In this document: positions 21,010-39,266 of the stretch, piece after piece
Layout: every line of letters begins with the position of its first letter
How positions within the stretch are numbered: position 1 is the stretch's first letter
From: an uncultured Pseudomonadales bacterium
GTDB lineage: Bacteria; Patescibacteriota; Microgenomatia; UBA1400; MFAQ01
Assembly (NCBI GenBank): GCA_964439805.1
Contig: CAYTOI010000005.1
Coordinates: 1-63,365, forward strand
Length of the DNA: 63,365 bases
Direction: 5' to 3'
Made by a program: the position numbers and the translations under genes
Notes under the pieces: generated by a model
Databases searched by the model: none
Told to the model about the DNA's origin: nothing
The model's input: the letters and a program-made list of their open reading frames with translations, nothing else

Positions 21010-21029
21010 TTAAGGTATTTATTTGATGG

Positions 21030-21049
21030 ATTCCTGCCTTCGCAGGAAT
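21030..21049. repeat. Perfect 8-bp hairpin (ATTCCTGC-CTTC-GCAGGAAT) of a GC-rich palindromic element between the ferredoxin and radical SAM genes
   Basis: Read directly: 21030..21037 pairs with 21042..21049. The flanks are GG...GACGGG. No T-tract follows on the transcribed (minus) strand. Confidence 0.6.
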
Positions 21050-21072
21050 GACGGGAAATGTATTAATAAAAA

Positions 21073-21342
21073 TTATGGAAAGATTTGATCGCCTGCTTGG
21101 TTTTTGATAGCTATAGCAAGTATTGGGCAACAGCGGGCTGCTTCGAGAACCATATCTAAGGTATCACCATCCGGATTGCTTATTATCGCTTTACCATCTT
21201 CGGCGCGGATTTCAAAAACTCCTGGGGCAGCTATGGCACAAGGTCCGGCTGCAATACATTTATTTAGATCCACAATTATGGTGTGGCCGTCGGATCTTTT
21301 GCCGGTGGAAAAGTTTTCGTCGGTAGTTACATTTTGGTTCAT
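21073..21342 (-). CDS. Small single-cluster ferredoxin, [3Fe-4S]-type ligand pattern
   Basis: 89 aa. 'DLNKCIAAGPCAIAAPGVFEI' is a CxxAxxC pattern, with Ala where a 4Fe ferredoxin has its second Cys. The distal ligand region is 'ARCCPILAIAI'. ATGA-type overlap with the upstream GT2. Confidence 0.8.
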   Translation of the reverse strand: MNQNVTTDENFSTGKRSDGHTIIVDLNKCIAAGPCAIAAPGVFEIRAEDGKAIISNPDGDTLDMVLEAARCCPILAIAIKNQAGDQIFP

Positions 21343-22373
21343 TGTTTTAGTTTATCAGTAAATAATAATCCTTGTAAAAAGCGAACTCCATACCAGAGAT
21401 GTGTAACAAAGATGACGGGAACAGACAAAAGAGATTGAGTCATTTTTTTTGAAAAGGTAAGAATCCAGATGGAGTTGAGGAAGAGGAGAATAAAATAAAC
21501 AGCTAGAGGGCTGAAAATTACAATCTTAATGGCGGGGATTGCTTCAGTTCCACTAATGCGGAAATTCGCAATGACGAGCGAAACCAACAAAGCCATATAT
21601 ATCAAGAAAAATGATGGGAGAAAGTAGATAAGTCTGTGAGAGGTTTTTGGTAGGACTTTTGCAAAAAAACCTCTGTGTAACCCAAAGTTTCCGTTTTGCC
21701 GCAGATGTGGCCTGAGGACTGGACGTCGGTGGTGGTAGACCAACACTTTGGGATCATAAATTATTTTTTGGTTTGTTTTGCTTACCAAATCCAAACAGAG
21801 TTTGGTGTCTTCCCCAGGCCAATAATTTGAGTCATACCCACCTACTTCCAAAAACTCTTTTCTTCGTACAGCCAAATTCATTGAAGGATAATCTTCAACA
21901 AATCTTTTTTTTCTAGGTAAAAATCTATAAAGATATGTCCCCGAACCAAAAGGGGAAGCTGAAGCCCAACCACTTGCTTCTTCTATTATTGAAACATTTG
22001 GAGGGGTGACTCCTGGACCACCAACTCCCACAATATTTTTACCTTCAAAATTTTTAACTATGTTTTTCAGCCAATCTTTGTGAGGATAGGCATCATCATC
22101 GATAAACGCAAGGACCTCCCCTTTTGCCATTTTGGCACCATCGTCTCTTTTTTCGGCTGGGCCAACATACTTTCCGTAGTGTTTTTTGCTGAGCTTAGGG
22201 TAACTTAAATTATTTTTGTAATCAGTTATCAAAATTATTTCGTAGTTTTTGAAACTTTGCTTTTGAATTGCATCGAGACACTCTACCAAATATGGGTTAT
22301 TTTCTTTGTAGTCGATGATGATGATGGAGACTGTGGGGTGTGATTGGCGTTTGGTGCGAGGTTCTAAGTTCAT
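21339..22373 (-). CDS. GT2 glycosyltransferase with a C-terminal multi-TM region
   Basis: 344 aa. 'VSIIIIDYKENNPYLVECLDAIQKQ' and 'FIDDDAY', with 3-4 hydrophobic segments after about residue 235. Confidence 0.8.
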   Translation of the reverse strand: MNLEPRTKRQSHPTVSIIIIDYKENNPYLVECLDAIQKQSFKNYEIILITDYKNNLSYPKLSKKHYGKYVGPAEKRDDGAKMAKGEVLAFIDDDAYPHKDWLKNIVKNFEGKNIVGVGGPGVTPPNVSIIEEASGWASASPFGSGTYLYRFLPRKKRFVEDYPSMNLAVRRKEFLEVGGYDSNYWPGEDTKLCLDLVSKTNQKIIYDPKVLVYHHRRPVLRPHLRQNGNFGLHRGFFAKVLPKTSHRLIYFLPSFFLIYMALLVSLVIANFRISGTEAIPAIKIVIFSPLAVYFILLFLNSIWILTFSKKMTQSLLSVPVIFVTHLWYGVRFLQGLLFTDKLKQ

Positions 22374-26533: not shown

Positions 26534-27415
26534 CTACTTGAGAGCGAGGTCTTCCTTTTTGAGATTTTCCCAGAGTTTCATATAGGCAAAGGCGAAATGA
26601 AGACCTGAGTACAGAGAAAAGACAAAACCTGCGAATCCGTCCAGAAAGCCACGATAGCGGAAATATAATCGACAAAAAGTGGAGAGGGGCAAAAAGACCA
26701 GATACTTAAAAGAATTTAGAAAATTTATATTTACTCTATTGTATTGTAACTCTTTGGCGGTAAGGCTGGAGTAACGATCTTCTCTTAGCAAGTACCTGGC
26801 AAAATTGGGTGAGGCGAAGTGCTCTAGGTCTTCTCTTAACCAACCAGTGACTCCCTTTACTTCCATTTGCTCGTGAACACTAATGCAAGGCAGAAAAGCT
26901 TTGCCGTTTTTGAAAAGTCTTATTACTGGGTCTGGGTACTGACCAGTGTGCTTGAGGTATCTACCTAGGAAATAATTTTTTCTGGGTAGCCAATAGGCTT
27001 CGGCGGAACTGCTAAGTTTTTTTGGTTCGGGAAATATTTTTATTATTTTATTTATAGAGAGTTTAAGCGGTGAGATCCAGCTGGTGTAGCCGAAATATTT
27101 TCCCTCCAACAAACTAACTATTTCGTCTTTTTGTTCTGGACTTACTCTTTCGTCAGCATCTAACTGCAAAATCCAGTCGCTTTTGGCTGCGTCGTTTCCT
27201 ATTTGCTTTTGAACGTGGAAGATAGGGTTATTTTCTCTGAGGAGGACTTTGGCTCCGAATTTTTTGGCAATTTCTACAGTTTTGTCTATAGAATGGCCGT
27301 CAACTATAATTATTTCGTCTACCCAGCCTGATACTGATTCTAGGCAGTCTACCAAAACAGACTCTTCGTTGAAGGTGGCTAAGGTGACGGAAATTGTTTG
27401 GCGCTTATTTTGCAT
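26534..27415 (-). CDS. GT2 glycosyltransferase (WaaE/KdtX-like subgroup)
   Basis: 293 aa. Motifs: 'ISVTLATFNEESVLVDCLESV', 'IIIVDGHSIDKT', 'QLDADE', and the C-terminal amphipathic 'RGFLDGFAGFVFSLYSGLH'. Confidence 0.8.
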   Translation of the reverse strand: MQNKRQTISVTLATFNEESVLVDCLESVSGWVDEIIIVDGHSIDKTVEIAKKFGAKVLLRENNPIFHVQKQIGNDAAKSDWILQLDADERVSPEQKDEIVSLLEGKYFGYTSWISPLKLSINKIIKIFPEPKKLSSSAEAYWLPRKNYFLGRYLKHTGQYPDPVIRLFKNGKAFLPCISVHEQMEVKGVTGWLREDLEHFASPNFARYLLREDRYSSLTAKELQYNRVNINFLNSFKYLVFLPLSTFCRLYFRYRGFLDGFAGFVFSLYSGLHFAFAYMKLWENLKKEDLALK

Positions 27416-29036
27416 TTGTAGAAATGAATTTGTACATAATGTTTCCTGAAGGATCTTTGATGTTGTAGATTAACACATTATCGTCAACAGATTCGTCAGT
27501 AGAAACAATTAGAGTGTTGGGTGACTTTTTGTCTTCGCTGTAGTTAACTGATCTGAACTCATATTTTCCCATTTTTCTTACTGTACTAAAGCCAAACTTA
27601 TCTCTTGGAGTCATGACAAGTTCTTTTTGAAGTACCTCTGGAGGATATTGGAGGAAGAAGGCCATGAGGATATATGGCTGGTCGTAGCGATCTGAAATAA
27701 TTATTTTATCGTACTTATTGTAGTTTTCCTTTGTGTAGGCAGCAATTTGATCAAATCCGTATTGCCAGGCATAAGGCAGCTCTTTGGGGTAGTGAATGTA
27801 GTATTGATGTAGATACTGAAGCAAGGAAAAAGAACTCAAGAAAACTAGAACGCAAGACAGTAGGAGTTTAATAATTTTGTTAGTTTTAAGGTTTAGGAGT
27901 TCGGAGATGCCGAGAGCAGTAATTATACTAAGTGGAATGACCATGTTTTGGGCTCTGAGAGCGTGAGGGGACTGAAATGTCATCGCTGCCGCTACAGGAG
28001 AAACTAAAAACCAAAACAGGATAAACTTTTTCCATTTAAAGTCTAGCTTTAATAAATTGAATAGACCCAAGAAATAGAATGGAATCAAAAACAATAAGCT
28101 CTGGCCCATGCCCGGCACCTTACTACGTGCAATTTCATCACCACCTATAAATAAAAATCTTGGAGAAAAGTGCGATAAATAATTTCTTGTAAAGCGAAGT
28201 CCGTAGGAAAGATATTGATTGTGAATTAATCTCGTATAAAGACCGGCTGGGTGTTCGCGCCTTGCCTCTAGAGCTTGCCACAGTGGTCCAGAATCAGAAA
28301 ATACCGACACACCAGTAAAGCGGGACTGCCCTTCTTTGGAGAGCATTTGATAAGCGAGAGGAAGAGACGCAGCTACACCTATAAAAACAGCAGCCGCAAT
28401 TAGTGTGAAGTGCTTAGTTATTTGTGAGGATAAAGACTTCCAATAAAAAATTACTAGAGACAGGGAAACAAGTGGAGCGATAAGCCTAGATGAGTGATAA
28501 GTATAAAGACTTAATACCATACTAATGACAAAAAGGAAGAAGTACTTAGAATTTTCCAAACCTTTTAAAAATCCGTAAACTCCGAGAAGTATAAAAAATG
28601 TAGACACATTCACTTCCCAGCCACCGCGAGAAAATTGGAGATGCCAAGGTGAAGTGGCGAGTATGAAGGCAGAGATAATCGCGAGGTTGCTGTCAGATTT
28701 GGATTTTAACAACTTGTTAACAATTAAATAAACCAAATAGACGGAAATGGTGCCCAAGATAGCTGATGGAAGACGAACAGACCAGATGTTTAAACCGAGG
28801 AGCTTAACAAAAGGTAACACAATATAAAAGTAGACTGCTGGCTTGTAGTCGTCAAAACTTCTAAAGACCATGGGCCACCTTGTACCATGTTCATCCATAC
28901 CAGTTTTTATTAGAGACCAGGCGTTGTATCCTATGGCGGCCTCATCGGCATTTAAACCTGCTGGGTACCTGTCCAAGCTGACAATTCTAAGAACTGCTGC
29001 CAAAAAAATAATTAAAAAGATTAGGTATTTTCTCAT
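27405..29036 (-). CDS. Family-A GT-C membrane glycosyltransferase (ArnT/PMT_2-like)
   Basis: 543 aa. Motifs: 'LRIVSLDRYPAGLNADEAAIGYNAWSLIKTGMDEHG', central 'HFSPRFLFIGGDEIARS', C-terminal 'WQYGFDQIAAY'. Confidence 0.85.
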   Translation of the reverse strand: MRKYLIFLIIFLAAVLRIVSLDRYPAGLNADEAAIGYNAWSLIKTGMDEHGTRWPMVFRSFDDYKPAVYFYIVLPFVKLLGLNIWSVRLPSAILGTISVYLVYLIVNKLLKSKSDSNLAIISAFILATSPWHLQFSRGGWEVNVSTFFILLGVYGFLKGLENSKYFFLFVISMVLSLYTYHSSRLIAPLVSLSLVIFYWKSLSSQITKHFTLIAAAVFIGVAASLPLAYQMLSKEGQSRFTGVSVFSDSGPLWQALEARREHPAGLYTRLIHNQYLSYGLRFTRNYLSHFSPRFLFIGGDEIARSKVPGMGQSLLFLIPFYFLGLFNLLKLDFKWKKFILFWFLVSPVAAAMTFQSPHALRAQNMVIPLSIITALGISELLNLKTNKIIKLLLSCVLVFLSSFSLLQYLHQYYIHYPKELPYAWQYGFDQIAAYTKENYNKYDKIIISDRYDQPYILMAFFLQYPPEVLQKELVMTPRDKFGFSTVRKMGKYEFRSVNYSEDKKSPNTLIVSTDESVDDNVLIYNIKDPSGNIMYKFISTNAK

Positions 29037-30646
29037 TAAGGTTTGGTTTTGATGACTCTAAAAATAATTTTATGGTCTGGTGTTTCAATCTGTCTAAACA
29101 TGCTGACATTGTCTCCTGTAATGTCGTATTGATTATCAATATTACCTTCAGAGCCGACAAACATTGTGTCTTTCATTCTATTTAACTCGCTGACACCAAA
29201 TTGATGAAATTGAACATTCCCCACCAATCCCACCTTACCAACATCTAACCCGCCATCAATAAAGCTATTATTTTTTTGATAAGTAATTGGATCGTATTGG
29301 GTGTAAAAAAGATAGTAGATATAAGGTTGGCCTAAAACATCAGTAAACAAAACAGTTTCGGTTGGATTATCCTTGATGAGCTGAACTGCCTGCTTATAGC
29401 CATAATTAAATTCCTTGGCAAAAATAGTTTGAGAGTGATAAATATACAAATCAAAAATATAAATGGTACACAGTGTGTAAAGGATGGCGAATGGAACAAA
29501 AAATATCTTTGGAGCCCTAAGCAAGTAATATATGCCCAAGGCCGAGATAATTGCCCAAGGAAATGCCATAAAAAGCGATCTTAGTGGTGAGTATTCTGCC
29601 AACGTAAGAGAGGCAGGAATGGGTGAAATTAAGAGCATGCCTAAGACAAGAGTTTTTTGTTTTAAAGTCGCCTCTTTGGCCAAATACACAAGCCCAGCAA
29701 AAATGAATACAATCTCTATTGGATTTAATAAACCTAAACCTGGAAGATGTGCCCTTTCTGACACTGCAACACCTTCGTAAAACAAAACCTCGGGAGAAAA
29801 ATAATAACTATAGCGAGAAATAACTAATTGTGTTGTTAAAAGTTTTTGATTATGAAAGATTACGTTGTCAGCTACTATTTTTGGTTTGTAGTTGAAAATA
29901 CTAAGAGTTGAAAGTCTGTTCCCTGCTGAGCCAAACAAAGCCCCAATATATATCCAACAGCCAAAAAGTATAAAGGGCAATAAAAATATAATTCTTTTTG
30001 GATTTAAATATTGAACAAACTGGCTTAAAAAGTCTTTAAAATAAATAGCAAGTAAAAGCAAATAAACTAGAGGCACTAATAGCTTTGCACCTTGGTACAT
30101 TGCCAAAGAAACACAAGCCAAGAAAAGTGTTGGATATGCAGTGGACTTGCCTTTTACAAATCTGACGAAAAAATAGACACCAAAGAGCAAACAGCTTACA
30201 AAGACGTTTGTTTCCCAAGCACCATGACTGAAGTGAACCAACCAAGGAGAGACGGCAGTCATTAATGCAGCAATTTGTGCTAGAAGTTCAGGCTGGTCTG
30301 TTGTTTTTCTGGGAAAAAGCTCTTTAACTAGAAGATAAACTCCAAAAATGCTAAAGATTCCAAATAGCGCAGCGGGAAACCTGACTGCAAACTCATTTAA
30401 TCCAAATATTGCCACAGAAGGAACAGTTAAGTATATATACGCACCTGGTTTGTAATCCCCAAAGCTTTTAAAAATAACAGGTAAAAAAGCGCCATGCTCA
30501 TCTCTGCCTGTTTTGAGAATTGAGTAAGCGTTATAGCCTATGGCCGCTTCATCCCATGTTAAACCGTTTGGAACTGTTGAAAGTTGATAAAGCCTAAGAA
30601 AAGTGCCGATCGCTAAAGCCAAGATTAATAAAAAATATTTTTTCAT
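29036..30646 (-). CDS. Family-A GT-C membrane glycosyltransferase
   Basis: 536 aa. Motifs: 'LRLYQLSTVPNGLTWDEAAIGYNAYSILKTGRDEHG', central 'YFSPEVLFYEG', C-terminal 'FNYGYKQAVQL'. Its TAA shares 1 nt (TAATG) with the next gene's ATG. Confidence 0.85.
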   Translation of the reverse strand: MKKYFLLILALAIGTFLRLYQLSTVPNGLTWDEAAIGYNAYSILKTGRDEHGAFLPVIFKSFGDYKPGAYIYLTVPSVAIFGLNEFAVRFPAALFGIFSIFGVYLLVKELFPRKTTDQPELLAQIAALMTAVSPWLVHFSHGAWETNVFVSCLLFGVYFFVRFVKGKSTAYPTLFLACVSLAMYQGAKLLVPLVYLLLLAIYFKDFLSQFVQYLNPKRIIFLLPFILFGCWIYIGALFGSAGNRLSTLSIFNYKPKIVADNVIFHNQKLLTTQLVISRYSYYFSPEVLFYEGVAVSERAHLPGLGLLNPIEIVFIFAGLVYLAKEATLKQKTLVLGMLLISPIPASLTLAEYSPLRSLFMAFPWAIISALGIYYLLRAPKIFFVPFAILYTLCTIYIFDLYIYHSQTIFAKEFNYGYKQAVQLIKDNPTETVLFTDVLGQPYIYYLFYTQYDPITYQKNNSFIDGGLDVGKVGLVGNVQFHQFGVSELNRMKDTMFVGSEGNIDNQYDITGDNVSMFRQIETPDHKIIFRVIKTKP

Positions 30647-32418
30647 CTTATGGAAGTAATTATAAGGGCTGGAGATCCATCTAGATTACTTATTATTTTT
30701 TCAACCTTTGCGTTAGTGGGAATATGATCGGGTGAAGTTATCAACAGACTGTTTGCAGAAGGAATAATTGTTCCACTCTCTAGTTTGAAACTGCCAACCA
30801 AATCTCTAGAGATATTCCAATCATTTATAAAATAGACGTTATCAATTTTATCCGTCCAGAACCAGTCTGATTTTTTGAAACGAATGTTGCTAAGGTTAGG
30901 CTGCATCAGTTTTGGATCGAGTTTGGTGAAGAATGCGTAAAACATGTGCGGTTCAGCTAGCCTTTTGGTAACAAAAACATTTTGATAGTTTTGTCTGTTA
31001 TTTTTTATATATTCAACAGCCTCTTGATATCCAAACTGCCAAGATTGAGAGTATCCAGTAACATATGAGTTGAAATACATTCCAGAATAGCTTGCAAAAC
31101 ATATTCCAATTATTATTAGTATTGTTGGAATAAAAAATTTAAATTTTTGTATCTCTGATAATTTTAATATTGGTAAGGTGGCAAAGATAATAAGCACTGG
31201 TATCATGGGGTTTGGTCTAAGTGCCTGGGGCGGGTCAGCGGTAAGTGAGGCTGCTACAGGAGACAATAGTAGCCACAGAAAAACAAATTGGTAGTTTTTA
31301 TTTGAGATGTTTAGTAAAACAAAAACCAACCCGATAATCGCCAAAATGGTGACAGGAAGAGTCAGCATGTTTTGGCCAGGAATAGCAAACTGAGTCTGTG
31401 ACCCTGTTGATTGCCATAAAAATTGTGGAGAAAAATATTTTAAGTAATTACTTGCAACAGTTTTTGCAAAAAAAATCGGTCTGTTGTAAACAAATTTTGC
31501 GATTATAGGAGAAAGAGAACTTGCTGTTCTCATCTCCCCTATTTGGAAGACTGTGTTTTCTGTAAGAATTTGAAGTTTTCCATATCGGGCAGTGGCCTCT
31601 CCGGAAAAGATTTGGGAGGTGACTATGGTGATGGAAAGGATAAAAAAGATGAAGGAAAATATTGATATTATTCTGGATTGCCACAGCACTTTGTGCTTCG
31701 CAATGACAAACTTATTTTTTATTTCTTTTCTAAAAATTAATAGTGTGGCGAGGAGCATTAAAGGAACGAAAACTCTTGCTGTATTGTAAGTATGGAGAGA
31801 CAGACTGAGGAGAAGGGAGGAATATAGTAGTGCAGAGTGCGAGGTTTTTGGTGCTGAGTTTAAGTATTTAATAAGAAAGTAGAAGCCAAAAATAATAAAG
31901 GTAAGAGCGAGGTTGGCCTCTAAAGCGGGACGAGATACAAAAAAGTGCCAGGGGGAGATGGCGAGGAGAAAGGCTGCGAGTAACCCGAATTCGTCATTGC
32001 GAGGAGTAGTCGATGAAGCAATCCCCGACGCGGAGATCGCTTCAGCACTTTGTGATTCGTGATGACGACCGAATAACTTATTTGTTAGTAAATAAATACC
32101 TGGAATGGCTAATGTACCAGCCAAGGCAGAAATGAATCTAACGGCAAAAGCATTTAAACCAAAAATCCAAACTGGAATAGTTGTGAGGTAAATGTAAACA
32201 GGTAGCTTGTAATCCCCAAAAGCCTTAAAAATAAGTGGGAATCGAGCCCCCCATTCGTCCATTCCTGTCTTTAAAATTGCATAAGCATTGTAACCGTGAC
32301 TTACTTCATCCCAATTTAATGACGGCGGGAAAGTACCAAGTTGCCAGAATCTCAATACTCCTCCAAAAAAAACAATTAGAAATAGCAAAATATTTTTTTG
32401 TCTAGTATTTAAATTCAT
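30643..32418 (-). CDS. Family-A GT-C membrane glycosyltransferase carrying an in-frame insertion
   Basis: 591 aa. Motifs: 'LRFWQLGTFPPSLNWDEVSHGYNAYAILKTGMDEWG', central 'YFSPQFLWQS', C-terminal 'WQFGYQEAVEY'. An extra segment 'GRHHESQSAEAISASGIASSTTPRNDEFG' is absent from the paralogues. Confidence 0.85.
   Translation of the reverse strand: MNLNTRQKNILLFLIVFFGGVLRFWQLGTFPPSLNWDEVSHGYNAYAILKTGMDEWGARFPLIFKAFGDYKLPVYIYLTTIPVWIFGLNAFAVRFISALAGTLAIPGIYLLTNKLFGRHHESQSAEAISASGIASSTTPRNDEFGLLAAFLLAISPWHFFVSRPALEANLALTFIIFGFYFLIKYLNSAPKTSHSALLYSSLLLSLSLHTYNTARVFVPLMLLATLLIFRKEIKNKFVIAKHKVLWQSRIISIFSFIFFILSITIVTSQIFSGEATARYGKLQILTENTVFQIGEMRTASSLSPIIAKFVYNRPIFFAKTVASNYLKYFSPQFLWQSTGSQTQFAIPGQNMLTLPVTILAIIGLVFVLLNISNKNYQFVFLWLLLSPVAASLTADPPQALRPNPMIPVLIIFATLPILKLSEIQKFKFFIPTILIIIGICFASYSGMYFNSYVTGYSQSWQFGYQEAVEYIKNNRQNYQNVFVTKRLAEPHMFYAFFTKLDPKLMQPNLSNIRFKKSDWFWTDKIDNVYFINDWNISRDLVGSFKLESGTIIPSANSLLITSPDHIPTNAKVEKIISNLDGSPALIITSIR
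31991..32068. repeat. 78-nt GC-rich palindromic element embedded in frame in the GT-C gene
   Basis: 7-bp terminal inverted repeats: TCGTCAT (31991..31997) and ATGACGA (32062..32068). There is an internal imperfect hairpin GAAGCAATC...GATCGCTTC (about 32015..32041) and an ATTGC...GCAAT pair. The stretch is visibly more GC-rich than its flanks. Confidence 0.55.
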
Positions 32419-34099
32419 AAAAAAGTGGCTCGCCTGAATGTAGTTTTATTATGTCACTATTTTTGGCAACCGACTTGAACTCTGTATTGAGATACTCAAG
32501 CATGGTTAAATAGTAAACTGCATTTTCTAGCTGATCTGGTCTTTTGTTTCTGTAATCTATTAATGATGCTATGTATAAATTTGTATCTCCAAAACGAATT
32601 CCATCTAAATCATTTTTTCCATCTGTGTTACTAAAAGCTGTTCCAGACTTTACAAAAGACTGAAATTTTTTTGGATCGAATTTGTTGTAATATGCATAGA
32701 AAATTAATGGATATTCATTTTTTGGAGATATTACCACTGGCTGACCACTATACGTGCCGGCCTTTAGAGCTAATTCTTTCATCCCTGAGCTCCATGATTT
32801 TTCTGAATCGTATCTATAGTGAAAAATGTAGTCATGTCCAAAAAACAAAGATTCAATGATTAGTGAAAATAAGAATATATAGAATATCAATCTATAGTTT
32901 TTGAATATATAAGAGAAGCCTACTGAAGAAGTCAATATTAATGGAAGTAAAAACATAAATGACCTACTTGCGTGAGCAAACCCCTCTCTCGTTATTGCAG
33001 AAGTTGATATTGATACAACTGAAAATATAATCAACAAAAACAAAAACTTATCTTTTTTGTTCCTGATCAAATAGTAAATACCAAAGAATAATAATGGTAA
33101 GAAATTTCTATAGATCATCCCCCAGTTTTGAACCGAGTGTCGAAGATTTGGATCCCCATTTGTAAAAAGGAAATCTGTAGAAATCAGACCAAAGAAGTTA
33201 TCTAATAATTTTTTAAAGTAAAATACTGGCTTATTGTGAAATATTTTTGAATAAATGGAGGTTGTAGCGCCGACAACTAAATTTGGCCCCAAGTCTTGTA
33301 CTCTTTGGTAGTTAACCTCAGACCCGGCAACCGGATCAGTGAAAATTGAGATGTAGTTGAACCTTGAAGCAGTGCCTCCATTGATAAACATTAAAATTAC
33401 AGGGATAAACAAAAATATAGAAAACAATTTCGCATATGAATTTTGAATTAAATGCTTAAATGAGTTCGGGAAAAATAACAAAAGAATTGGGTAAAAAATA
33501 ATAGCCATCTTGGCGGTGTTGTAAACCATGGGAGTTAACCCCAAAACAATAAAGGAGGTTAAAAGATAAAAGTTTTTTTCTTTGATTAAATATTCTGTAA
33601 ATAAATAAAGCCCTGAGACCACAAAAAAGTAAAGTAAGGCTAGTGAAAAACCAATTCTAGAATATGTTAAGTGCCAAGGAACAATAGCTACTAGAAAGGC
33701 AGATATATAACCCAAATAAGGCAAATCTAAGTCAAAGATTTTTCTTGATTTTAAATTTTCTACAAAAAGATAAGTCATTAAAATTCCAAGCGTGCCAAAA
33801 ACTGCTGGTACAAGGCGAATGGCAAGATCTAGATTTATTCCTAAAAAACTGGCCAAGGCTATCAGATAAATAGGTATTGGGGGTTGGACATCACTAAATG
33901 AGTGGAACTGTATTGGAAAGCAAATTCCAGAGTAATCACAGCCAGTTTTGAGAAGTGAGTATGCTTGATAACCCATATCTACCTCGTCAGAAAAAAGACT
34001 TATGGGCAGCTTTAATAAACCTACCAATCGGAGACTGCCCCCTAAAATTAAAATTACTAGCAATGGCCAGTATTTTTTTAATGCAACTTTGATGTCCAT
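32402..34099 (-). CDS. Family-A GT-C membrane glycosyltransferase
   Basis: 565 aa. Motifs: 'LRLVGLLKLPISLFSDEVDMGYQAYSLLKTGCDYSG', central 'ISTDFLFTNGDPNLRHS', C-terminal 'WSSGMKELALK'. Confidence 0.8.
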   Translation of the reverse strand: MDIKVALKKYWPLLVILILGGSLRLVGLLKLPISLFSDEVDMGYQAYSLLKTGCDYSGICFPIQFHSFSDVQPPIPIYLIALASFLGINLDLAIRLVPAVFGTLGILMTYLFVENLKSRKIFDLDLPYLGYISAFLVAIVPWHLTYSRIGFSLALLYFFVVSGLYLFTEYLIKEKNFYLLTSFIVLGLTPMVYNTAKMAIIFYPILLLFFPNSFKHLIQNSYAKLFSIFLFIPVILMFINGGTASRFNYISIFTDPVAGSEVNYQRVQDLGPNLVVGATTSIYSKIFHNKPVFYFKKLLDNFFGLISTDFLFTNGDPNLRHSVQNWGMIYRNFLPLLFFGIYYLIRNKKDKFLFLLIIFSVVSISTSAITREGFAHASRSFMFLLPLILTSSVGFSYIFKNYRLIFYIFLFSLIIESLFFGHDYIFHYRYDSEKSWSSGMKELALKAGTYSGQPVVISPKNEYPLIFYAYYNKFDPKKFQSFVKSGTAFSNTDGKNDLDGIRFGDTNLYIASLIDYRNKRPDQLENAVYYLTMLEYLNTEFKSVAKNSDIIKLHSGEPLFYEFKY

Positions 34100-34117
34100 A
34101 TATAAATTATATTCTAA

Positions 34118-35707
34118 CTATTTAAGGTTAGTTTTTGTTATTCGATATGCTGGAGATCCATCTGGATAATTAATTTGTTTTATTAAGGTCAAGTTATTGT
34201 CTTTAATTTGCTGGAGAGATATCGCAAGGCTGTCTCCTATTAGGTATTGTTCAATTTTTTTATCTTCTGTCCAGTTAATCCCCCTTGTTGTTAGCCTGCC
34301 AATAATCTTGGTAGTATTTCTTCCCATGTAAGTATAGTAATTTTCATTACTAACTTCAAAATTATTTTTTTGATATTGAACAGGATCAGCATTTAAATAC
34401 ACCAATAGCTGGCTGTATGGTTCAGCTCTGGCATTGTCCACGACGATTGGTAACTGAGGGTTAAATTCATTTTTAATTACATCGGCCACTTGTTGCCAGC
34501 CATAATCCCAGTAAGGAGCTCTGTAGTACTCATTTAATAAATAGCCAGAACTATACAGTTTAAGAATAGAATATGTGAGCAACAATACAATTACGACAGT
34601 TTGAATTTTGAAAGAAATTTTTTTTAGTAACACTATAGCTGAAAGTGCACATATGATTACGTAGGGAATAACTAAAGGTAGTGAGCGAATAGTAGAGAAT
34701 GGATCTCTGGTTAAGGATGCTGGGATAGGGGCAATGATCAAAAACAATATAATAAATTGCTTTAAGTTGGATGAAATTTTTTTGGTAAACAATAAGTACA
34801 ATCCATGAATGTAAAGGGGAAGTTGCCATAAGTAAAAAACAGACAAACCAGGAAAAGAACTTCTTGGACCTGCATCGCCTAGCCAAAATAATTGTCGAGG
34901 TGAAAAATAAGACAGGTAAAGCGATGGCCATTCTTTTACCCCCCAGCTGTTAACCCCCGAAAAAATTCCTAAAGTGGAAACTCTGGCTAAAAATCCTGGA
35001 GTATTAATTATTCTTAGTGTTGGCAGGGTAATAATAAAACCAATTAGAACACTTAATACTGAGTAGAAGAGATATTTTGAAGAAAAAAGGATTTTGAAAT
35101 ATTTAACTAATAAATACAACAAAATAAGTGGAACCAAAATTCTCTCAGAGTGATAAGCGGGTAAGGCTATGGCAAAGAAAATGCCAGAAAAGATCAGCAC
35201 TGCGGGCTTTTGCAAGGAAACCTGGAAAAGATATATCCCTAAAAGTAGAAGGAACAGAGCCACGTTACATTCGAAATTTGTTCTTCCAAATAATATGTGC
35301 CATGGTGAAATTGACAGGAACAGTGTCGAAAGTAAGGCTAAATTTTTTGAATCCTTTGAGTTATCAGATAATTTTAAAATTAAAAAGTACAAAAGTGGTA
35401 ATGTCAAAATACTAAAGAAAAATGAGGGGAAACGAATTGTAAAAGTATTTAAGCCAAATATTGGAATGATGGGAGCAATTAGGTAAACATATATTGGTGT
35501 CTTAAAGTCGTTAAATGATCGAAATGCGGCTGGAAAAGGCATGCCGAACTCATCCTTGCCTGTTTTGAGTATGGAATAGGCGCTAAACCCTTGTCCTGCT
35601 TCATCCAAATACAAACCTGCTGGAGCCAATCCTAACTTATAAAATCTAACAACAAACCCAAGGATTACTACTAGCAACAAACTTACCGCATAAAAGTATT
35701 TATTCAT
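34118..35707 (-). CDS. Family-A GT-C membrane glycosyltransferase
   Basis: 529 aa. Motifs: 'VRFYKLGLAPAGLYLDEAGQGFSAYSILKTGKDEFG', central 'YFSPRQLFWLGDAGPRS', C-terminal 'WDYGWQQVADV'. Its closest paralogue is 36283..37953. Confidence 0.85.
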   Translation of the reverse strand: MNKYFYAVSLLLVVILGFVVRFYKLGLAPAGLYLDEAGQGFSAYSILKTGKDEFGMPFPAAFRSFNDFKTPIYVYLIAPIIPIFGLNTFTIRFPSFFFSILTLPLLYFLILKLSDNSKDSKNLALLSTLFLSISPWHILFGRTNFECNVALFLLLLGIYLFQVSLQKPAVLIFSGIFFAIALPAYHSERILVPLILLYLLVKYFKILFSSKYLFYSVLSVLIGFIITLPTLRIINTPGFLARVSTLGIFSGVNSWGVKEWPSLYLSYFSPRQLFWLGDAGPRSSFPGLSVFYLWQLPLYIHGLYLLFTKKISSNLKQFIILFLIIAPIPASLTRDPFSTIRSLPLVIPYVIICALSAIVLLKKISFKIQTVVIVLLLTYSILKLYSSGYLLNEYYRAPYWDYGWQQVADVIKNEFNPQLPIVVDNARAEPYSQLLVYLNADPVQYQKNNFEVSNENYYTYMGRNTTKIIGRLTTRGINWTEDKKIEQYLIGDSLAISLQQIKDNNLTLIKQINYPDGSPAYRITKTNLK

Positions 35708-36286
35708 TTAAAAAAATAATCTTAGTTCGTAAAAAATCTCAAATAAAATAAGTAAAAAAAACAGAATTGTAAGTTTTTTTTGAGAGTTGAACATTTCTAT
35801 TAATCCTAAATATATTGCGACAAAAAAGAATGGCCATAATAAAAAATCTAGCATATGATGGTTGGCAAAAAACGAAAGCATGACAATGGCTAACAAAAAT
35901 AGATAAGCAATAATATTTTTGTATTTTCCTTTAAACTTAAAAATAAAAAACAACAGTGGAAGTATGACAAGCAAAGGTAACCTGATGTAATTTTGGCCAT
36001 TTACCACTTCCCTGGGATGAGAACCAAAAAAGTAATAGTTTGGGTCTAGAAAATCAAAAAGATTATCAAAATACTTATTTGAGATTATTACAAGCTTGTT
36101 TTGAAAAAATCTTGCTAAAGGAATATTGGGGTAAATGTTAATGTTTCGAAGTACCAGCTGCCTCGCTTGGTAATCTGATTCAAATATACTTTTTATGTCT
36201 GTAGCTGAACCTATATTTTGTGCACCAAAGTTTGATATCCAAATAGACAAAGACAAAATGGTTACAACCATGATTAATTTCTTCAT
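35708..36286 (-). CDS. Small membrane protein resembling the central loop plus following helices of family-A GT-C proteins
   Basis: 192 aa. Layout: N-terminal anchor, loop 'LARFFQNKLVIISNKYFDNLFDFLDPNYYFFGSHPREVVNGQNY', then 3-4 TM segments. It is paralogous to 39274..40089. It abuts both neighbours (0-nt gap and 4-nt overlap). Confidence 0.5.
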   Translation of the reverse strand: MKKLIMVVTILSLSIWISNFGAQNIGSATDIKSIFESDYQARQLVLRNINIYPNIPLARFFQNKLVIISNKYFDNLFDFLDPNYYFFGSHPREVVNGQNYIRLPLLVILPLLFFIFKFKGKYKNIIAYLFLLAIVMLSFFANHHMLDFLLWPFFFVAIYLGLIEMFNSQKKLTILFFLLILFEIFYELRLFF

Positions 36287-37953
36287 TGGCTAGGATTTGT
36301 TTTGAGGATTCTTAATGCTATTTCTTTGTTTGGATATAGAATATCGATAATTTTTGTAATGTTATGTTCCAATATCTGCTGATCTGAGATAGCCCTTGAA
36401 TCTACAATTAAATATTTTTCAACTCTATCTGTGTCGACCCCCCAGACAAAATTTTTGACAGTAACTCTTCCAATTTTTTTGGTTTCATTTCTTGAAATAT
36501 TACTGTAGTAATCAGAACTGGATACCTCAAAGTTTTCATTTTGGTATTTTTCTGGATCGAATTTTGAGAAAAAAAGCAATTCTATATATGGATGTCCCCT
36601 GACACTATCTACCAGTATAGGTATGTTAGGATTTAGCTTGTCTATTTCCTCAACCGCATCTTGCCAACCGTAACTCCAAAACTCTGAACGATAATAGTCG
36701 TGATGATAAAAAATTGAGACATACATTTTGCCTAGTGAGTAAAATACTATTAGAGTTAAAACCAATAACTTTACGTAAGACGAAATTGATACCAAATCCC
36801 ACGACTTTATTATTCCGTAGGAAACAATGATTGTAAACGGAATTACCATTGGAAGGGACCTAAGAGTGGAATACGGGTCTCTAGTTAAGCTCGCAGGTAT
36901 GGGAGAGGCCAAAAGCAGAGTAAGAATTAAGGGCTTTAGTTTTTTTTGATCTGAGCTTTTTAAGAGGAAATAAAGACCGACAAGATAAAACGGAAATTGC
37001 CAAACAAATAAGGACCCTAGGTCTGGAAATGGTTTTCTCGGGCCTGCGTCACCAAGTGAAAAAATGAATCTTGGTGAAAAGTAAGATGAGTAAAGTGACG
37101 AGAATTCTCTGATGGTAAGAATTGTGCGATTGTTTGAAATGCTCGCCAATGGACTGTTGCCATTTACTTTGCCCCATGGAAATTCATGAACGTTAGATAA
37201 AATGCTTAATGCTGATGTTCTAGCCTTAAATCCTGGAGTTTGAATTATTTTTAGAGTTGGAAAAATAATTATGATTCCTATAACAAAACTTAAGATAGCA
37301 GGTAAGAAAAATTGTTTTTTATATTCTAAAAACTTTTTAAAATTTAAGACAATAAACATTGTTAACAATACAGGGACCAAAAATAATTCAGCACGATACG
37401 CCAAGGCAGAAAGGGATAGAGTAACGGCTGACAATAGCAAGAACCAAGCCTTTTTGAGGGAACTATAGAGCAAAAGTAAGCCTAAAAGGAGAAGAAAAAG
37501 GGCGATATTTGCCTCGTATGCAGTTCTGCTATAGAGAATATGCCAAGGAGAAATGGCAAGGAGTGTGGCAGAAAATGGGGCTAGGTATTTATTGTTAGGC
37601 TCGGGGGAAAGGTTTTTGACCAAGAAAAACAAGAGTGGAATTGTTAACATTCCAAAAATAGCAGATGGAAGACGAACAGAAAAAGGTGTTATGCCTAAAA
37701 AGTATACAAATGGAACCGTAATGTATGTATAGACAGGACTTTGAAAAGTGGAAAAAGATCTGAACATAACTGGAAAACTTTTTCCGAATTCATCCTTGCC
37801 TGTTTTGAGTATGGAATAGGCGTTATAACCAATTGAAGCTTCGTCTATATAGAACCCCTTAGGTACTTCTCCAAGCTTGTAAAATCTTATAAAAATTCCA
37901 ACAGCAATAATTGCAATTAAGATGATGCCGGCAATTTTTTTATAATTGATCAT
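36283..37953 (-). CDS. Family-A GT-C membrane glycosyltransferase
   Basis: 556 aa. Motifs: 'IRFYKLGEVPKGFYIDEASIGYNAYSILKTGKDEFG', central 'YFSPRFIFSLGDAGPRK', C-terminal 'WSYGWQDAVEE'. Confidence 0.85.
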   Translation of the reverse strand: MINYKKIAGIILIAIIAVGIFIRFYKLGEVPKGFYIDEASIGYNAYSILKTGKDEFGKSFPVMFRSFSTFQSPVYTYITVPFVYFLGITPFSVRLPSAIFGMLTIPLLFFLVKNLSPEPNNKYLAPFSATLLAISPWHILYSRTAYEANIALFLLLLGLLLLYSSLKKAWFLLLSAVTLSLSALAYRAELFLVPVLLTMFIVLNFKKFLEYKKQFFLPAILSFVIGIIIIFPTLKIIQTPGFKARTSALSILSNVHEFPWGKVNGNSPLASISNNRTILTIREFSSLYSSYFSPRFIFSLGDAGPRKPFPDLGSLFVWQFPFYLVGLYFLLKSSDQKKLKPLILTLLLASPIPASLTRDPYSTLRSLPMVIPFTIIVSYGIIKSWDLVSISSYVKLLVLTLIVFYSLGKMYVSIFYHHDYYRSEFWSYGWQDAVEEIDKLNPNIPILVDSVRGHPYIELLFFSKFDPEKYQNENFEVSSSDYYSNISRNETKKIGRVTVKNFVWGVDTDRVEKYLIVDSRAISDQQILEHNITKIIDILYPNKEIALRILKTNPSQ

Positions 37954-39266
37954 TATCGTCTAATAACTCCTAAAGGACCTGATGTGTATACAAATTTTTC
38001 ATTTGCTTTTGATGTCAAGGAAATACTGAATAGGTGCCCTTCTGGTCCGGAGAAAGGCTCGTGCTTAAAATACTTAAAAATATATTGATACCCTGTATTT
38101 TCGCCTAGAGGAAGATCATAAGAAACATTGAACACTGGAAACTCTTTTTGGTTTACTATGTAACTAACTACATTAAGTTTGTCTCTTAACCGGACAAATG
38201 GTTTATCGTTAAGTACAATAATGAACTGTGAATATACCAACAATCCTATAACCGGAATAATAATCCATATAGTAAGTTTGTCGACAAATAATTTTGCTAA
38301 AAATAACGGTATTAAAGCATTTGCCATACCATAGTAATACTCAGGAATATTACCCTTGTACTGAGAAAGCGCCAACATGGGTAATAGTATCCAAAGTGAA
38401 GTAAGAATTTTTGATTGAAAATCTTTTTGCTTATAGATTGCGTAACAAAAGGCTATAAGAATAATAATTTTTTCCTGCACATAACCACTCAGAACAAGTG
38501 ATCTCCAAAAAGTTTGCATAAAATACCAAGTTGGGTATGTTCTATCTGCAGACTGACCACCTATAAATATTAATAATTTGTTGAGATTTAAAAATTGATG
38601 TCTAAGATCAAAAATCGCTATTGGAGTAAAGAACAGAGCCAAGACAATTAAACCCCAAAGCAATTGCCTGACTGTTGCTTTCTTTTTTGTAAGTAATTGA
38701 GTTAGGGCGACATAGCCCATGATTGGAGCGGTAACCAGATGGAATGAAGCAGCAAAGCCTGCAAAGGCCGACGCATGTATAAAAAGTTTATTTGATTTTA
38801 GTAGCTGATGGCACAAATAATAACCAATTAGACTAAAAGGAGTAATAAACATGGCATTCCAAGAAACAATAGAAACTGAACTGGCCGTAATAATTGCAGC
38901 GAGAATGGCAACCCTTTTATCGTATAATTTCTCACCTATAAAATATGTGAGCAAAGGAACAATTCCACCTATCAAAACCGAAGCAATGGCTCCTGCAGCT
39001 GGGTGACCACCCACGGCAAGAAAAAGAGGTAGTAAAAAATAATAGAAGTAAGGACCTGTAAAAAAACCATTATCGTTTGCAACTCTTGGACCAATTAGCA
39101 CAGGCTTCTTGTCCCAAACCATGCTCATAACATTCATAGCATCATTAGACTGATCCCATTCGAAAGTATACCTATCATTGATTCTGATCGCTTTAATGCA
39201 GATAGAAAAAGCTACTATAAAAGTGAGCAGAATTATTTTTGTCCAATTTGGACGAAGTTTGGCCAT
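37953..39266 (-). CDS. Family-B polytopic GT-C-like membrane protein
   Basis: 437 aa. First loop: 'FEWDQSNDAMNVMSMVWDKKPVLIGPRVANDNGFFTGPYFYYF'. It shares a D(Q/E)xxD ... (I/L)(V/I)GP ... G(P)xxYY pattern with 43282..44826 and 50375..51919. TAATG overlap with the next gene. Confidence 0.6.
   Translation of the reverse strand: MAKLRPNWTKIILLTFIVAFSICIKAIRINDRYTFEWDQSNDAMNVMSMVWDKKPVLIGPRVANDNGFFTGPYFYYFLLPLFLAVGGHPAAGAIASVLIGGIVPLLTYFIGEKLYDKRVAILAAIITASSVSIVSWNAMFITPFSLIGYYLCHQLLKSNKLFIHASAFAGFAASFHLVTAPIMGYVALTQLLTKKKATVRQLLWGLIVLALFFTPIAIFDLRHQFLNLNKLLIFIGGQSADRTYPTWYFMQTFWRSLVLSGYVQEKIIILIAFCYAIYKQKDFQSKILTSLWILLPMLALSQYKGNIPEYYYGMANALIPLFLAKLFVDKLTIWIIIPVIGLLVYSQFIIVLNDKPFVRLRDKLNVVSYIVNQKEFPVFNVSYDLPLGENTGYQYIFKYFKHEPFSGPEGHLFSISLTSKANEKFVYTSGPLGVIRR

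What the first reader, a model, noticed from the sequence alone, without database searches (positions are those of the whole stretch)
31991..32068. GC-rich palindromic repeat element inserted in frame inside a GT-C coding sequence
The paralogue at 30643..32418 carries 'GRHHESQSAEAISASGIASSTTPRNDEFG' where its siblings have about 7-10 residues between 'K(L/E)(L/F)' and '..SPW'. The underlying DNA is conspicuously GC-rich for this genome. It is bounded by 7-bp inverted repeats (TCGTCAT / ATGACGA, 78 nt end to end, which is 26 codons). It contains an internal 9-bp imperfect hairpin (GAAGCAATC / GATCGCTTC) and an ATTGC/GCAAT pair. Translated, it gives '...IASS..PRNDE'. This recalls the peptides produced when a widespread class of short palindromic intergenic repeats is spuriously translated (strings like ...LAMT or ...PRND). 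That is my recollection, not a search result. A REP/MITE-like element tolerated in frame in a loop of a membrane enzyme would be an unusual way of generating paralogue diversity.
Basis: partly seen in the sequence, partly recalled or inferred. Interest (0 to 1): 0.65.

Follow-up and report, generated by a model that had tools for sequence, protein, structure and literature searches.

The report
Hairpin repeat pair inside glycosyltransferase gene
The 78-base GC-rich palindrome is a real in-frame copy of a widespread bacterial hairpin repeat (a 'CGTC-tagged' REP pair linked to small GIY-YIG nuclease genes), sitting in a probably cytoplasmic loop of a membrane glycosyltransferase. This kind of event is already known from Rickettsia and other bacteria, so it is a new example, not a new mechanism.

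Summary
Window 31991-32068 is a 78-nt palindrome with 52.6% GC in a 36% GC genome, read through in frame by the GT-C (PMT_2/ArnT-like) ORF 30643-32418(-). The closest orthologue (79% aa identity) lacks it.

It is two hairpin units facing each other with their CGTCAT tags outward. This is the 'HH dimer' of the CGTC-tagged REP superfamily (Di Nocera 2013), the same class as Neisseria dRS3/NTS and Rickettsia RPE-4/-6.

- **More copies.** Three more units lie in the window: one in the same ORF, one in a GT2 ORF, one intergenic. A near-identical dimer occurs twice in a more distant orthologue's gene. Unit-type peptides mark 36 of 67 long loop inserts in 120 orthologues.
- **Nuclease link.** Units of this class flank 96-aa GIY-YIG nuclease genes in the unit-gene-unit layout reported for the ssDNA nuclease SsnA (Chenal 2025). 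This was seen in CPR contigs, one of them Collierbacteria, and in Atribacter. The window's dimer is therefore a gene-less, MITE-like relative.
- **Not shown.** No such nuclease gene is in this window, and mobility itself was not demonstrated.

It is a new member of a known kind, of moderate interest.

The parts
31991..32068 (.). Composite element: head-to-head (tags outward) heterodimer of two CGTC-tagged hairpin units, 78 nt. It spans codon 117 position 3 to codon 143 position 2 of the GT-C ORF.
   Evidence: It is absent from the closest orthologue. A near-identical composite occurs twice in L002.
31992..32024 (+). Unit A: CGTCATTGCGAGGAGTAGTCGATGAAGCAATCC. It has the CGTC tag, an ATTGC/GCAAT stem and a CC tail. 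It is antisense to the ORF and gives ..GIASSTTPRND.
   Evidence: It belongs to the same class as 216 units in 120 genome loci from many phyla.
32025..32032 (.). 8-nt spacer CCGACGCG between the two units. It forms the tip of the long hairpin.
   Evidence: It is identical in all three composite copies.
32033..32067 (-). Unit B, partly decayed: CGTCATCACGAATCACAAAGTGCTGAAGCGATCTC. It is sense to the ORF and gives RHHESQSAEAIS.
   Evidence: It shares the inner hairpin CACAAAGTGCTG with the loop-3 unit. 81 metagenome loci hold this subfamily.
31675..31708 (-). A second, single unit in the same ORF (loop 3, codons 237-248, 'VIAKHKVLWQS'): TGTCATTGCGAAGCACAAAGTGCTGTGGCAATCC, followed by the AGA tail.
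   Evidence: It is shared with orthologue P0002/L001, with 35/36 nt identical. It matches 31/33 nt of the unit that abuts a Collierbacteria GIY-YIG gene.
30643..32418 (-). Host gene: a 591-aa GT-C fold glycosyltransferase (PMT_2 / GT39 / ArnT-like), one of a tandem array of paralogues.
   Evidence: PF13231. AF2 model with pLDDT 81.9 and pTM 0.85. Foldseek matches to AglB, STT3, PglB, ArnT and Pmt4.
21536..21576 (-). Unit inside the GT2 glycosyltransferase ORF 21339-22373(-), codons 266-280 ('VIANFRISGTEAIP'): CGTCATTGCGAATTTCCGCATTAGTGGAACTGAAGCAATCC.
   Evidence: The peptide is shared by only 3 close orthologues. Other orthologues carry different unit-type peptides in the same loop.
21028..21053 (-). 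Intergenic unit of the dRS3/NTS (CGTC-1) type: CGTCATTCCTGCGAAGGCAGGAATCC. It has an 8-bp stem and a GAAG loop.
   Evidence: ssDNA fold z -4.13, with 0/200 shuffles as good. It differs from the Neisseria NTS by a compensatory C-G to T-A stem change, which makes it miss the published SRM search string.

Best explanation
**What it is**
- The 78 nt are a non-autonomous, MITE-like member of the CGTC-tagged REP superfamily.
- It consists of two different hairpin units of the form CGTCAT-[stem-loop]-ATCC, placed with tags outward around an 8-nt spacer.
- This is the gene-less counterpart of 'unit -> small GIY-YIG nuclease gene <- unit' cassettes found in CPR bacteria and other phyla.
- It lies in a length-variable, K/R-rich, probably cytoplasmic loop between two transmembrane helices of a GT-C glycosyltransferase.

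**Why it survives there**
- Its length is a multiple of three.
- It sits in one of its two open frames.
- The loop tolerates about 20 extra disordered residues.

**How it most likely spread (inferred, not shown)**
- The units act as single-stranded DNA hairpins that an Ssn-type GIY-YIG nuclease, supplied in trans, recognises and nicks.
- New copies arise during replication, repair or uptake of ssDNA, or by recombination or gene conversion between copies.
- The peptide it encodes is a by-product, not the selected function.
For: **Shown**
- The units have a CGTC tag, a stem that starts with AT, and a CC(A) tail. The pair has its tags outward. These match the published definition of CGTC REPs and their dominant HH dimers.
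- The family is dispersed. There are 4 unit loci in the window, against about 1 expected; 4 of 200 shuffles reach that count.
- Three composite copies share an identical 24-nt core across two genomes. Another copy with the same 34-nt core sits elsewhere in metagenome X4.
In them, 65 unit pairs are tags-outward, 5 are tags-inward and 3 are tandem.
- The element is absent from the nearest orthologue.
- Among 81 metagenome loci selected only for carrying unit B, three have a 96-aa GIY-YIG ORF (PF01541, E about 1e-15) bracketed within 65 nt by convergent units.
- The same layout occurs in contigs carrying a protein that NCBI names for a Collierbacteria MAG, in a Patescibacteria contig, in WWE3 contigs and in Atribacter.
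- In Atribacter, a gene-less dimer made of the same two units lies next to two gene-carrying copies.
- The GIY-YIG protein has Y8, Y19 and E66. This is the same spacing as the residues mutated in SsnA (Y6A, Y17A, E64A) in Chenal 2025.
- AF2 gives pLDDT below 50 for residues 120-140, which is the insert.
- The four length-variable loops are K/R-rich, while the fixed-length loops are near neutral.

**From the literature**
- SsnA binds and cleaves NTS hairpins as ssDNA only, and NTS-ssnA-NTS resembles an IS (PMC11893778).
Against: - No GIY-YIG gene is in the 63-kb window or in L001-L003. Whether this organism has one is unknown.
- No transposition, empty-site polymorphism or target-site duplication was seen.
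- The Ssn paper shows nuclease activity and an effect on transformation. It does not show mobilisation.
- The published SRM search string matches none of the window's units.
- The units here have bipartite stems with long loops, not the 8-9 bp stems and 4-5 nt loops of the four described CGTC families.
- Enrichment within the window alone is modest.
- The nearest orthologue keeps CCTCGCA at the right-hand junction. 'Insertion here' and 'partial deletion there' therefore cannot be told apart.
Confidence: 0.8

Rival explanations
1. The element is old and kept by selection at the DNA or RNA level. It would be a functional hairpin, for example an Ssn recognition site that limits ssDNA recombination around envelope-glycosylation genes (as proposed for NTS around surface-protein genes in Neisseria), or an mRNA structure that modulates translation. 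On this view the two orthologues share it by descent.
For: - Window and L002 carry it at exactly the same codon position on both sides.
- It is the best-conserved DNA in the whole gene: 70/81 nt identical, against 62.4% gene-wide and 40.8% at third codon positions.
- All of the 33/33-identical 11-codon windows of the gene lie inside it.
- The loop-3 unit is 35/36 identical between window and L001.
- The sense RNA folds at z -5.3.
- Chenal 2025 reports NTS clusters around membrane-protein genes.
Against: - P0001 and P0004 are not sister sequences. Descent would need at least four independent losses, in P0002, P0006, P0003/P0005 and P0015/P0025.
- Orthologues carry unit-type peptides of different subfamilies and reading frames in the same loops, which points to repeated turnover.
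- A relative about 93% identical in the flanks has 150 unalignable nt in place of 31966-32091.
- No functional data exist.
Confidence: 0.25
2. The repeat is mobilised by an IS200/IS605-type tyrosine transposase (RAYT), as proposed for GTAG-tagged REPs and REPINs. The GIY-YIG association would then be incidental.
For: - The architecture is the same as REPINs: inverted doublets of hairpin units with an asymmetric tag, and no target-site duplication.
- Di Nocera 2013 raised the possibility that CGTC elements might be mobilised by RAYTs or by other transposases.
Against: - The tag is CGTC, not GTAG.
- Di Nocera 2013 found no RAYT or other transposase gene flanked by CGTC units in any species examined.
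- Here, the gene bracketed by units in the eight cassette loci listed in the full report (L174, L158, L138, L205, L209, L212 twice, L213) is a GIY-YIG.
- I did not scan the loci for HUH/Y1 proteins.
Confidence: 0.04
3. This is not a repeat at all. It would be a lineage-specific, GC-rich loop extension that looks palindromic by chance, or an assembly chimera.
For: - Exact 10-mer matches in the window are not significant on their own: 3 found against 1.84 expected.
- The assembly-graph contigs of run X1 break inside the element.
Against: - The composite was recovered independently in two other assemblies, L002 and L003.
- The ORF stays open and its downstream domains are conserved.
- Dozens to hundreds of related units exist elsewhere.
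- Folding beats shuffles.
- Contig breaks inside a repeat are what an assembly graph is expected to show.
Confidence: 0.02

Closest known systems
CGTC-tagged REPs (families CGTC-1 to -4; Di Nocera, De Gregorio & Rocco 2013, PMC3733652)
   Same: - A CGTC tag at one end, a stem that begins with AT, and a short CC(A) tail.
- Mostly tags-outward (HH) dimers, often heterodimers.
- Intragenic copies, more than half of them dimers that encode 20-30 residues, sometimes twice in one ORF.
- The window's intergenic unit is a plain CGTC-1 / dRS3-type hairpin.
   Different: - The coding units have a short ATTGC stem plus an inner variable hairpin, giving 26-50 nt units. The described families have one 8-9 bp stem and a 4-5 nt loop.
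- The host is a CPR (Microgenomates) bacterium. The paper found CGTC REPs in five phyla, and CPR was not among those I saw named in the parts I read.
- The paper found no partner enzyme.
Neisseria NTS / Ssn-related motifs (SRM) and the SsnA GIY-YIG ssDNA nuclease (Chenal et al. 2025, PMC11893778)
   Same: - The same CGTCAT 5' flank and a C after the palindrome.
- The same 'repeat - small GIY-YIG gene - repeat' layout.
- A partner protein of 96 aa against 94 aa, with the same Tyr-Tyr-Glu spacing.
- Distribution across many phyla.
   Different: - The published SRM search string matches none of the window's units.
[quoted passage not shown] Three of the four unit loci in this window are inside genes.
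- No nuclease gene is present in this window.
- Homology of the CPR GIY-YIG to cd10448/SsnA was not tested directly.
Rickettsia palindromic elements (RPE)
   Same: - Palindromic repeats inserted in frame in unrelated protein-coding genes, translated as extra surface segments (PMC10969869).
- RPE-4 and RPE-6 are CGTC-4 and CGTC-1 elements.
   Different: - The RPEs first described are about 150 bp and each encodes a conserved peptide. This element is 78 nt, and its relatives are read in several frames.
- The host is a free-living or episymbiotic CPR bacterium, not an intracellular alphaproteobacterium.
REPINs / GTAG-tagged REPs with RAYT transposases
   Same: Inverted doublets of tagged hairpins, a single-copy partner gene flanked by the same units, and no target-site duplication.
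   Different: The tag differs (CGTC, not GTAG). The partner is a GIY-YIG nuclease, not an HUH/Y1 transposase.

Membership tests
CGTC-tagged REP superfamily | Unpaired CGTC (or TGTC/CCTC) tag at one end of a stem-loop | tested here: met
   Unit A, unit B, the GT2 unit and the intergenic unit start with CGTCAT. The loop-3 unit starts with TGTCAT.
CGTC-tagged REP superfamily | Stem begins with complementary A-T, T-A pairs, and the unit ends in a short tail (consensus CCA) | tested here: met
   Units have ATTGC...GCAAT or ATTCCTGC...GCAGGAAT, followed by CC(A/C).
CGTC-tagged REP superfamily | Stem of 8-9 bp with a loop of 4-5 nt (families 1-4) | tested here: not met
   This is met only by the intergenic unit at 21028-21053 (8-bp stem, GAAG loop). 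The coding units have a 5-bp outer stem plus an inner hairpin. The paper notes loops of other lengths in Bradyrhizobium.
CGTC-tagged REP superfamily | Multi-copy, predominantly tags-outward (HH) dimers | tested here: met
   In 120 genome loci, 65 pairs are tags-outward, 5 tags-inward and 3 tandem. The window composite is tags-outward. The copy number in this organism's own genome is unknown.
Ssn-related motif (SRM/NTS) with Ssn nuclease | Matches the published degenerate SRM string HGTCWYN(0-2)YYVSBRHN(0-5)WNVSBRGN(0-2)RNCYNB | tested here: not met
   There are 0 matches in the window. The ATTGC class and the T-A compensated intergenic unit both fail, while a canonical NTS passes.
Ssn-related motif (SRM/NTS) with Ssn nuclease | Units flank a small single-domain GIY-YIG gene on both sides | tested here: met
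   Seen in L174, L158, L138, L205, L209, L212 (twice) and L213. Pfam PF01541 was confirmed for three of the proteins. It is not seen in the window itself.
Ssn-related motif (SRM/NTS) with Ssn nuclease | Partner protein belongs to cd10448 (GIY-YIG_unchar_3) / is homologous to SsnA | tested here: inconclusive
   Only the Pfam GIY-YIG match, the size (96 aa against 94 aa) and the Tyr8/Tyr19/Glu66 spacing equal to SsnA Y6/Y17/E64 are available. No SsnA sequence or CDD model was at hand.
Ssn-related motif (SRM/NTS) with Ssn nuclease | Unit is bound and cut as ssDNA by its nuclease | not testable with these tools
   This needs purified protein and oligonucleotides.
Rickettsia palindromic elements | Palindromic repeat inserted in frame in a functional gene and tolerated | tested here: met
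   The ORF is open through the element, downstream domains are conserved, and the insert is a low-confidence surface loop.
Rickettsia palindromic elements | Family members of about 100-150 bp with a conserved encoded peptide, found in Rickettsia | tested here: not met
   This element is 78 nt. Relatives are read in at least three frames (VIA.., SLRG.., RH[CHR]E..). The host is a Microgenomates bacterium.
Classical MITE | Terminal inverted repeats plus a target-site duplication | tested here: not met
   Inverted ends are present, but no duplication flanks any of the three composite copies.

The most novel reading that the evidence does not exclude
The GIY-YIG / CGTC-REP system is currently active in CPR bacteria, and it inserts or gene-converts with site preference. 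The same composite sits at exactly the same codon of two non-sister orthologues whose genes are only 62% identical in DNA, yet the element is 86% identical with a 41-nt perfect core. If that reflects homing-like targeting or ongoing copy correction, it would give the first handle on how CGTC REPs move. It would also show them remodelling the cytoplasmic loops of envelope glycosyltransferases across a whole phylum-level lineage.
Probability: 0.2. Interest if true: 0.7.

Novelty: new member of a known kind. Interest (0 to 1): 0.4.

Why it matters
- **Annotation.** Peptide strings such as VIA..QS, SLRG.., ..PRND and ..LAMT in CPR proteins are translated repeat DNA, not conserved motifs. In this family they should be masked in alignments and domain calls.
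- **Range of the repeat family.** The CGTC-REP / small GIY-YIG association now extends to Candidate Phyla Radiation genomes. In these compact genomes, with little intergenic space, the repeats often survive inside genes.
- **A test system.** The P0204 nuclease, together with units A and B, offers a concrete way to ask whether Ssn-type nucleases mobilise their repeats. Both source papers leave that question open.
- **Limits.** It does not reveal a new mechanism of protein diversification.

Tried and rejected
- **Rfam.** A scan of the whole window at gathering thresholds gave no match.
- **Exact 24-nt core.** Scanning the JGI metagenome collection for the composite's core found nothing. A degenerate unit-B pattern then found 81 loci.
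- **GIY-YIG in the window.** A motif regex and tblastn with home-made consensus sequences found nothing in the window. A phmmer search with the same consensus over six-frame ORFs of the window and L001-L003 also found nothing.
- **GIY-YIG next to generic units.** In the 120 reference-genome loci only 1 hit appeared (L113). Most units are therefore far from a nuclease gene, as expected for a multi-copy repeat.
- **Empty-site allele.** I looked in public runs. None was seen, only a relative with a different 150-nt segment whose sequence the tool does not print.
- **Target-site duplication or conserved target motif.** Neither was found. All three composite copies are preceded by GTC.
- **Published SRM pattern.** 0 hits in the window.
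- **Supplementary tables of the Ssn paper.** I wanted them for CPR entries, but none are held.
- **Considered and rejected.** An intein or intron (too small, no catalytic parts), an invertible phase-variation segment (no recombinase), a DGR target (no reverse transcriptase), and a CRISPR repeat (no array).
Full report
**1. The observation**

Window 31991-32068 reads TCGTCATTGCGAGGAGTAGTCGATGAAGCAATCCCCGACGCGGAGATCGCTTCAGCACTTTGTGATTCGTGATGACGA.
- The terminal 7-bp inverted repeat is exact and extends to 12-nt arms at 83%. An inner pair of 14-nt arms is 86% complementary.
- GC is 52.6%, against 36.1% for the window. Only 1% of 78-nt windows reach that value.
- As ssDNA the two strands fold at -15.2 and -16.2 kcal/mol (z -2.5 and -3.15). 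As sense RNA it folds at -32.6 kcal/mol (z -5.3).
- The minus-strand ORF 30643-32418 (591 aa) reads through it as GRHHESQSAEAISASGIASSTTPRNDEFG.
- Two of the element's six frames are open.

**2. Anatomy**

The element is not one palindrome but two different hairpin units facing each other.
- Unit A, plus strand, 31992-32024: CGTCATTGCGAGGAGTAGTCGATGAAGCAATCC.
- An 8-nt spacer, CCGACGCG.
- Unit B, minus strand, 32067-32033: CGTCATCACGAATCACAAAGTGCTGAAGCGATCTC.

Each unit has an unpaired CGTC tag, a stem that starts with AT, a variable inner hairpin and a CC tail.

The window holds three more units of the same design.
- A single unit lies in the same ORF (31708-31675, 'VIAKHKVLWQS'). It shares the inner hairpin CACAAAGTGCTG with unit B.
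- One lies in a GT2 glycosyltransferase ORF (21576-21536, 'VIANFRISGTEAIP').
- One is an intergenic hairpin, CGTCATTCCTGCGAAGGCAGGAATCC (21053-21028).

Within the window alone the enrichment is modest: 4 unit loci against about 1 in dinucleotide shuffles, with 4 of 200 shuffles reaching 4.

**3. Is it an insertion?**

The host protein is a GT-C fold enzyme.
- It matches Pfam PMT_2, and its named homologues are Microgenomates and Collierbacteria GT39 proteins.
- The AF2 model has pLDDT 81.9 and pTM 0.85. Its Foldseek matches are AglB, STT3, PglB, ArnT and Pmt4.

The closest orthologue is P0002 (79% aa and 79% nt identity; locus L001).
- It has only PEPRTENF where the window has 28 residues. It does share the loop-3 unit.
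- The net difference is 60 nt.
- P0002 reads CCTCGCACCGAG where the element ends in CCTCGCAATGAC. A fresh insertion here (perhaps next to an older remnant) and a partial deletion there cannot be told apart.

A more distant orthologue, P0004 (loci L002 and L003, two independent assemblies), carries a near-identical composite at exactly the same codon position.
- It carries a second copy in loop 3 of the same gene. That copy has a nested perfect palindrome, CCTGCCTGCCGGCAGGCAGG.
- The 24-nt core GATCTCCGCGTCGGGGATTGCTTC is identical in all three copies.
- Between window and L002 the gene is 62.4% identical in DNA (40.8% at third positions), but the element is 70/81 identical. All of the 33/33-identical 11-codon windows in the gene lie inside it.
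- In a neighbour-joining tree P0001 pairs with P0002, while P0004 falls in another clade with P0015 and P0025. Simple vertical descent would need several independent losses.
- Independent gain at the same site, lateral replacement of the loop, or copy correction are all possible. I could not separate them.

**4. Recurrence in the protein family**

In an alignment of 120 orthologues, four length-variable loops hold 67 long inserts.
- 36 of them carry unit-type peptides: VIA..QS, SLRG..WQS, RH[RH][EK]S.., VIPAKAGIH, ..SGMT, ..RND.
- These come in different subfamilies and reading frames.
- The same is true of the variable loop of the GT2 family.

The four variable loops are K/R-rich (net +1 to +3.4), like the N-terminus.
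- The fixed-length loops are about neutral. The long 82-residue loop and the C-terminal domain are invariant in length.
- By the positive-inside rule and the usual GT-C layout, the inserts lie on the cytoplasmic face, away from the active site. This is an inference.
- AF2 gives pLDDT below 50 for residues 120-140.

**5. What family of repeat is it?**

A literature search on the unit sequences led to two papers.
- **Di Nocera et al. 2013 (PMC3733652)** defined 'CGTC-tagged' REPs: an unpaired CGTC tag, stems that begin with AT, a CCA tail, and mostly tags-outward 'HH' dimers.
  - Neisseria dRS3 and Rickettsia RPE-6 and RPE-4 are members.
  - Intragenic copies are reported, more than half of them dimers or groups encoding 20-30 residues and sometimes two per ORF.
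- **Chenal et al. 2025 (PMC11893778)** showed that the NTS (CGTCATTCCCGCGMAVGCGGGAATCYRG) and related 'SRM' hairpins flank ssnA, a 94-aa single-domain GIY-YIG gene.
  - Its product binds and cuts the hairpin as ssDNA only and modulates transformation.

- They come from Alpha- and Gammaproteobacteria, Bacteroidota, Melainabacteria, Elusimicrobia, Armatimonadetes, Chloroflexi, Omnitrophota, Firmicutes and Absconditabacterales.
- In these loci 65 unit pairs are tags-outward, 5 tags-inward and 3 tandem. The window's composite therefore has the canonical architecture.

**6. The nuclease link**

A metagenome scan for the unit-B subfamily returned 81 loci.
- 53 units lie outside any ORF of 150 aa or more, and 28 lie inside one.
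- Three loci hold a 96-aa GIY-YIG ORF (PF01541, E about 1e-15) bracketed within 65 nt by convergent units: L174, L158 and L138.
- A homologue that NCBI names 'Endonuclease [Candidatus Collierbacteria bacterium GW2011_GWC2_44_18]' (P0204) sits in a nest of units. The unit 10 nt after its stop codon is 31/33 identical to the window's loop-3 unit.
- The same bracketing is seen in a Patescibacteria contig (L213) and, as whole dimers, in WWE3 contigs (L209).
- In the complete Atribacter laminatus genome (L212), two gene-carrying copies stand next to a gene-less dimer built from the same two units.
- The CPR protein has Tyr8, Tyr19 and Glu66. This is the spacing of the residues mutated in SsnA, Y6A, Y17A and E64A.

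I therefore read the window's 78-mer as the gene-less, MITE-like counterpart of a unit-GIY-YIG-unit cassette.

**7. What is not shown**
- No GIY-YIG gene is in the window or in L001-L003.
- The published SRM search string matches none of the window's units.
- The coding units have bipartite stems, unlike the four described CGTC families.
- No target-site duplication, empty-site read or transposition event was seen.
- In public runs the source metagenome (X1) holds the window. A relative about 93% identical in the flanks (X4) replaces 31966-32091 with 150 unalignable nt. A further dimer with the same 34-nt core lies elsewhere in X4.
- That Ssn-type nucleases mobilise the repeats is a hypothesis in the literature and here, not a result.

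**8. Verdict**

The element is a tags-outward dimer of CGTC-tagged REP units, in frame in a tolerant and probably cytoplasmic loop. In-frame palindromic repeats in genes are well known (Rickettsia RPEs; intragenic CGTC dimers), so this is a new member of a known kind. The added value has three parts:
- The host lineage is CPR.
- The ATTGC-class units escape the published search pattern.
- These units are tied to small GIY-YIG genes in CPR genomes.

The identical-site, near-identical composite in two non-sister orthologues is the one feature that remains unexplained.

Noticed in passing
window 27405-39266 (- strand): A tandem array of membrane glycosyltransferase paralogues: six PMT_2-like ORFs of 529-591 aa plus a 437-aa relative. 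ORF ends overlap or nearly abut. L001 and L002 hold a similar run of PMT_2-family genes. Only one paralogue carries the repeat units.
   Followed up: partly
L002 10703-10726; L205 5795-5814 and 6338-6357: A perfect 20-nt palindrome, CCTGCCTGCCGGCAGGCAGG, sits nested inside the hairpin part of some units. Translated, it gives the 'LPAGRQA' strings seen in several orthologues (P0003, P0020, P0087). It may be a second-order insertion or a common stem variant.
   Followed up: partly
window 31966-32091, compared with runs X4 and X10: A relative about 93% identical in the flanking gene has 150 nt that do not align, even at 80% likeness, in place of these 126 nt. The X10 contig continues as ...AAAAATGCTGCTTTAATTGCTGCATTTTTA on the coding strand. 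The whole loop-1 neighbourhood, not only the element, is replaced between close strains.
   Followed up: partly
P0002 and P0005, loop 1 (alignment A1, columns 136-170): P0002 and P0005 share the loop peptide PEPRTE[NH]F although they are not sister sequences in the tree. P0005 pairs with P0003, which has a different loop. The history of the loop disagrees with the history of the gene, which hints at recombination confined to the loop.
   Followed up: no
L212 1434-2632 (Atribacter laminatus CP065383.1): Two tandem copies of the unit-GIY-YIG-unit cassette are followed by a gene-less dimer of the same units. At least four distinct GIY-YIG proteins of this subfamily come from this one genome (P0163, P0164, P0220, P0222), as expected for a multi-copy selfish gene.
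   Followed up: partly
L205 1-693: A DprA (DNA_processg_A) gene lies about 5 kb from the Collierbacteria GIY-YIG cassette. It is relevant only because SsnA acts on incoming single-stranded DNA. This is probably coincidence.
   Followed up: no
window 21073-21342 (- strand): A small 89-aa ORF with Cys-rich ferredoxin-like motifs (CIAAGPC ... CCP) lies just upstream of the intergenic hairpin unit, which sits between it and the next gene.
   Followed up: no
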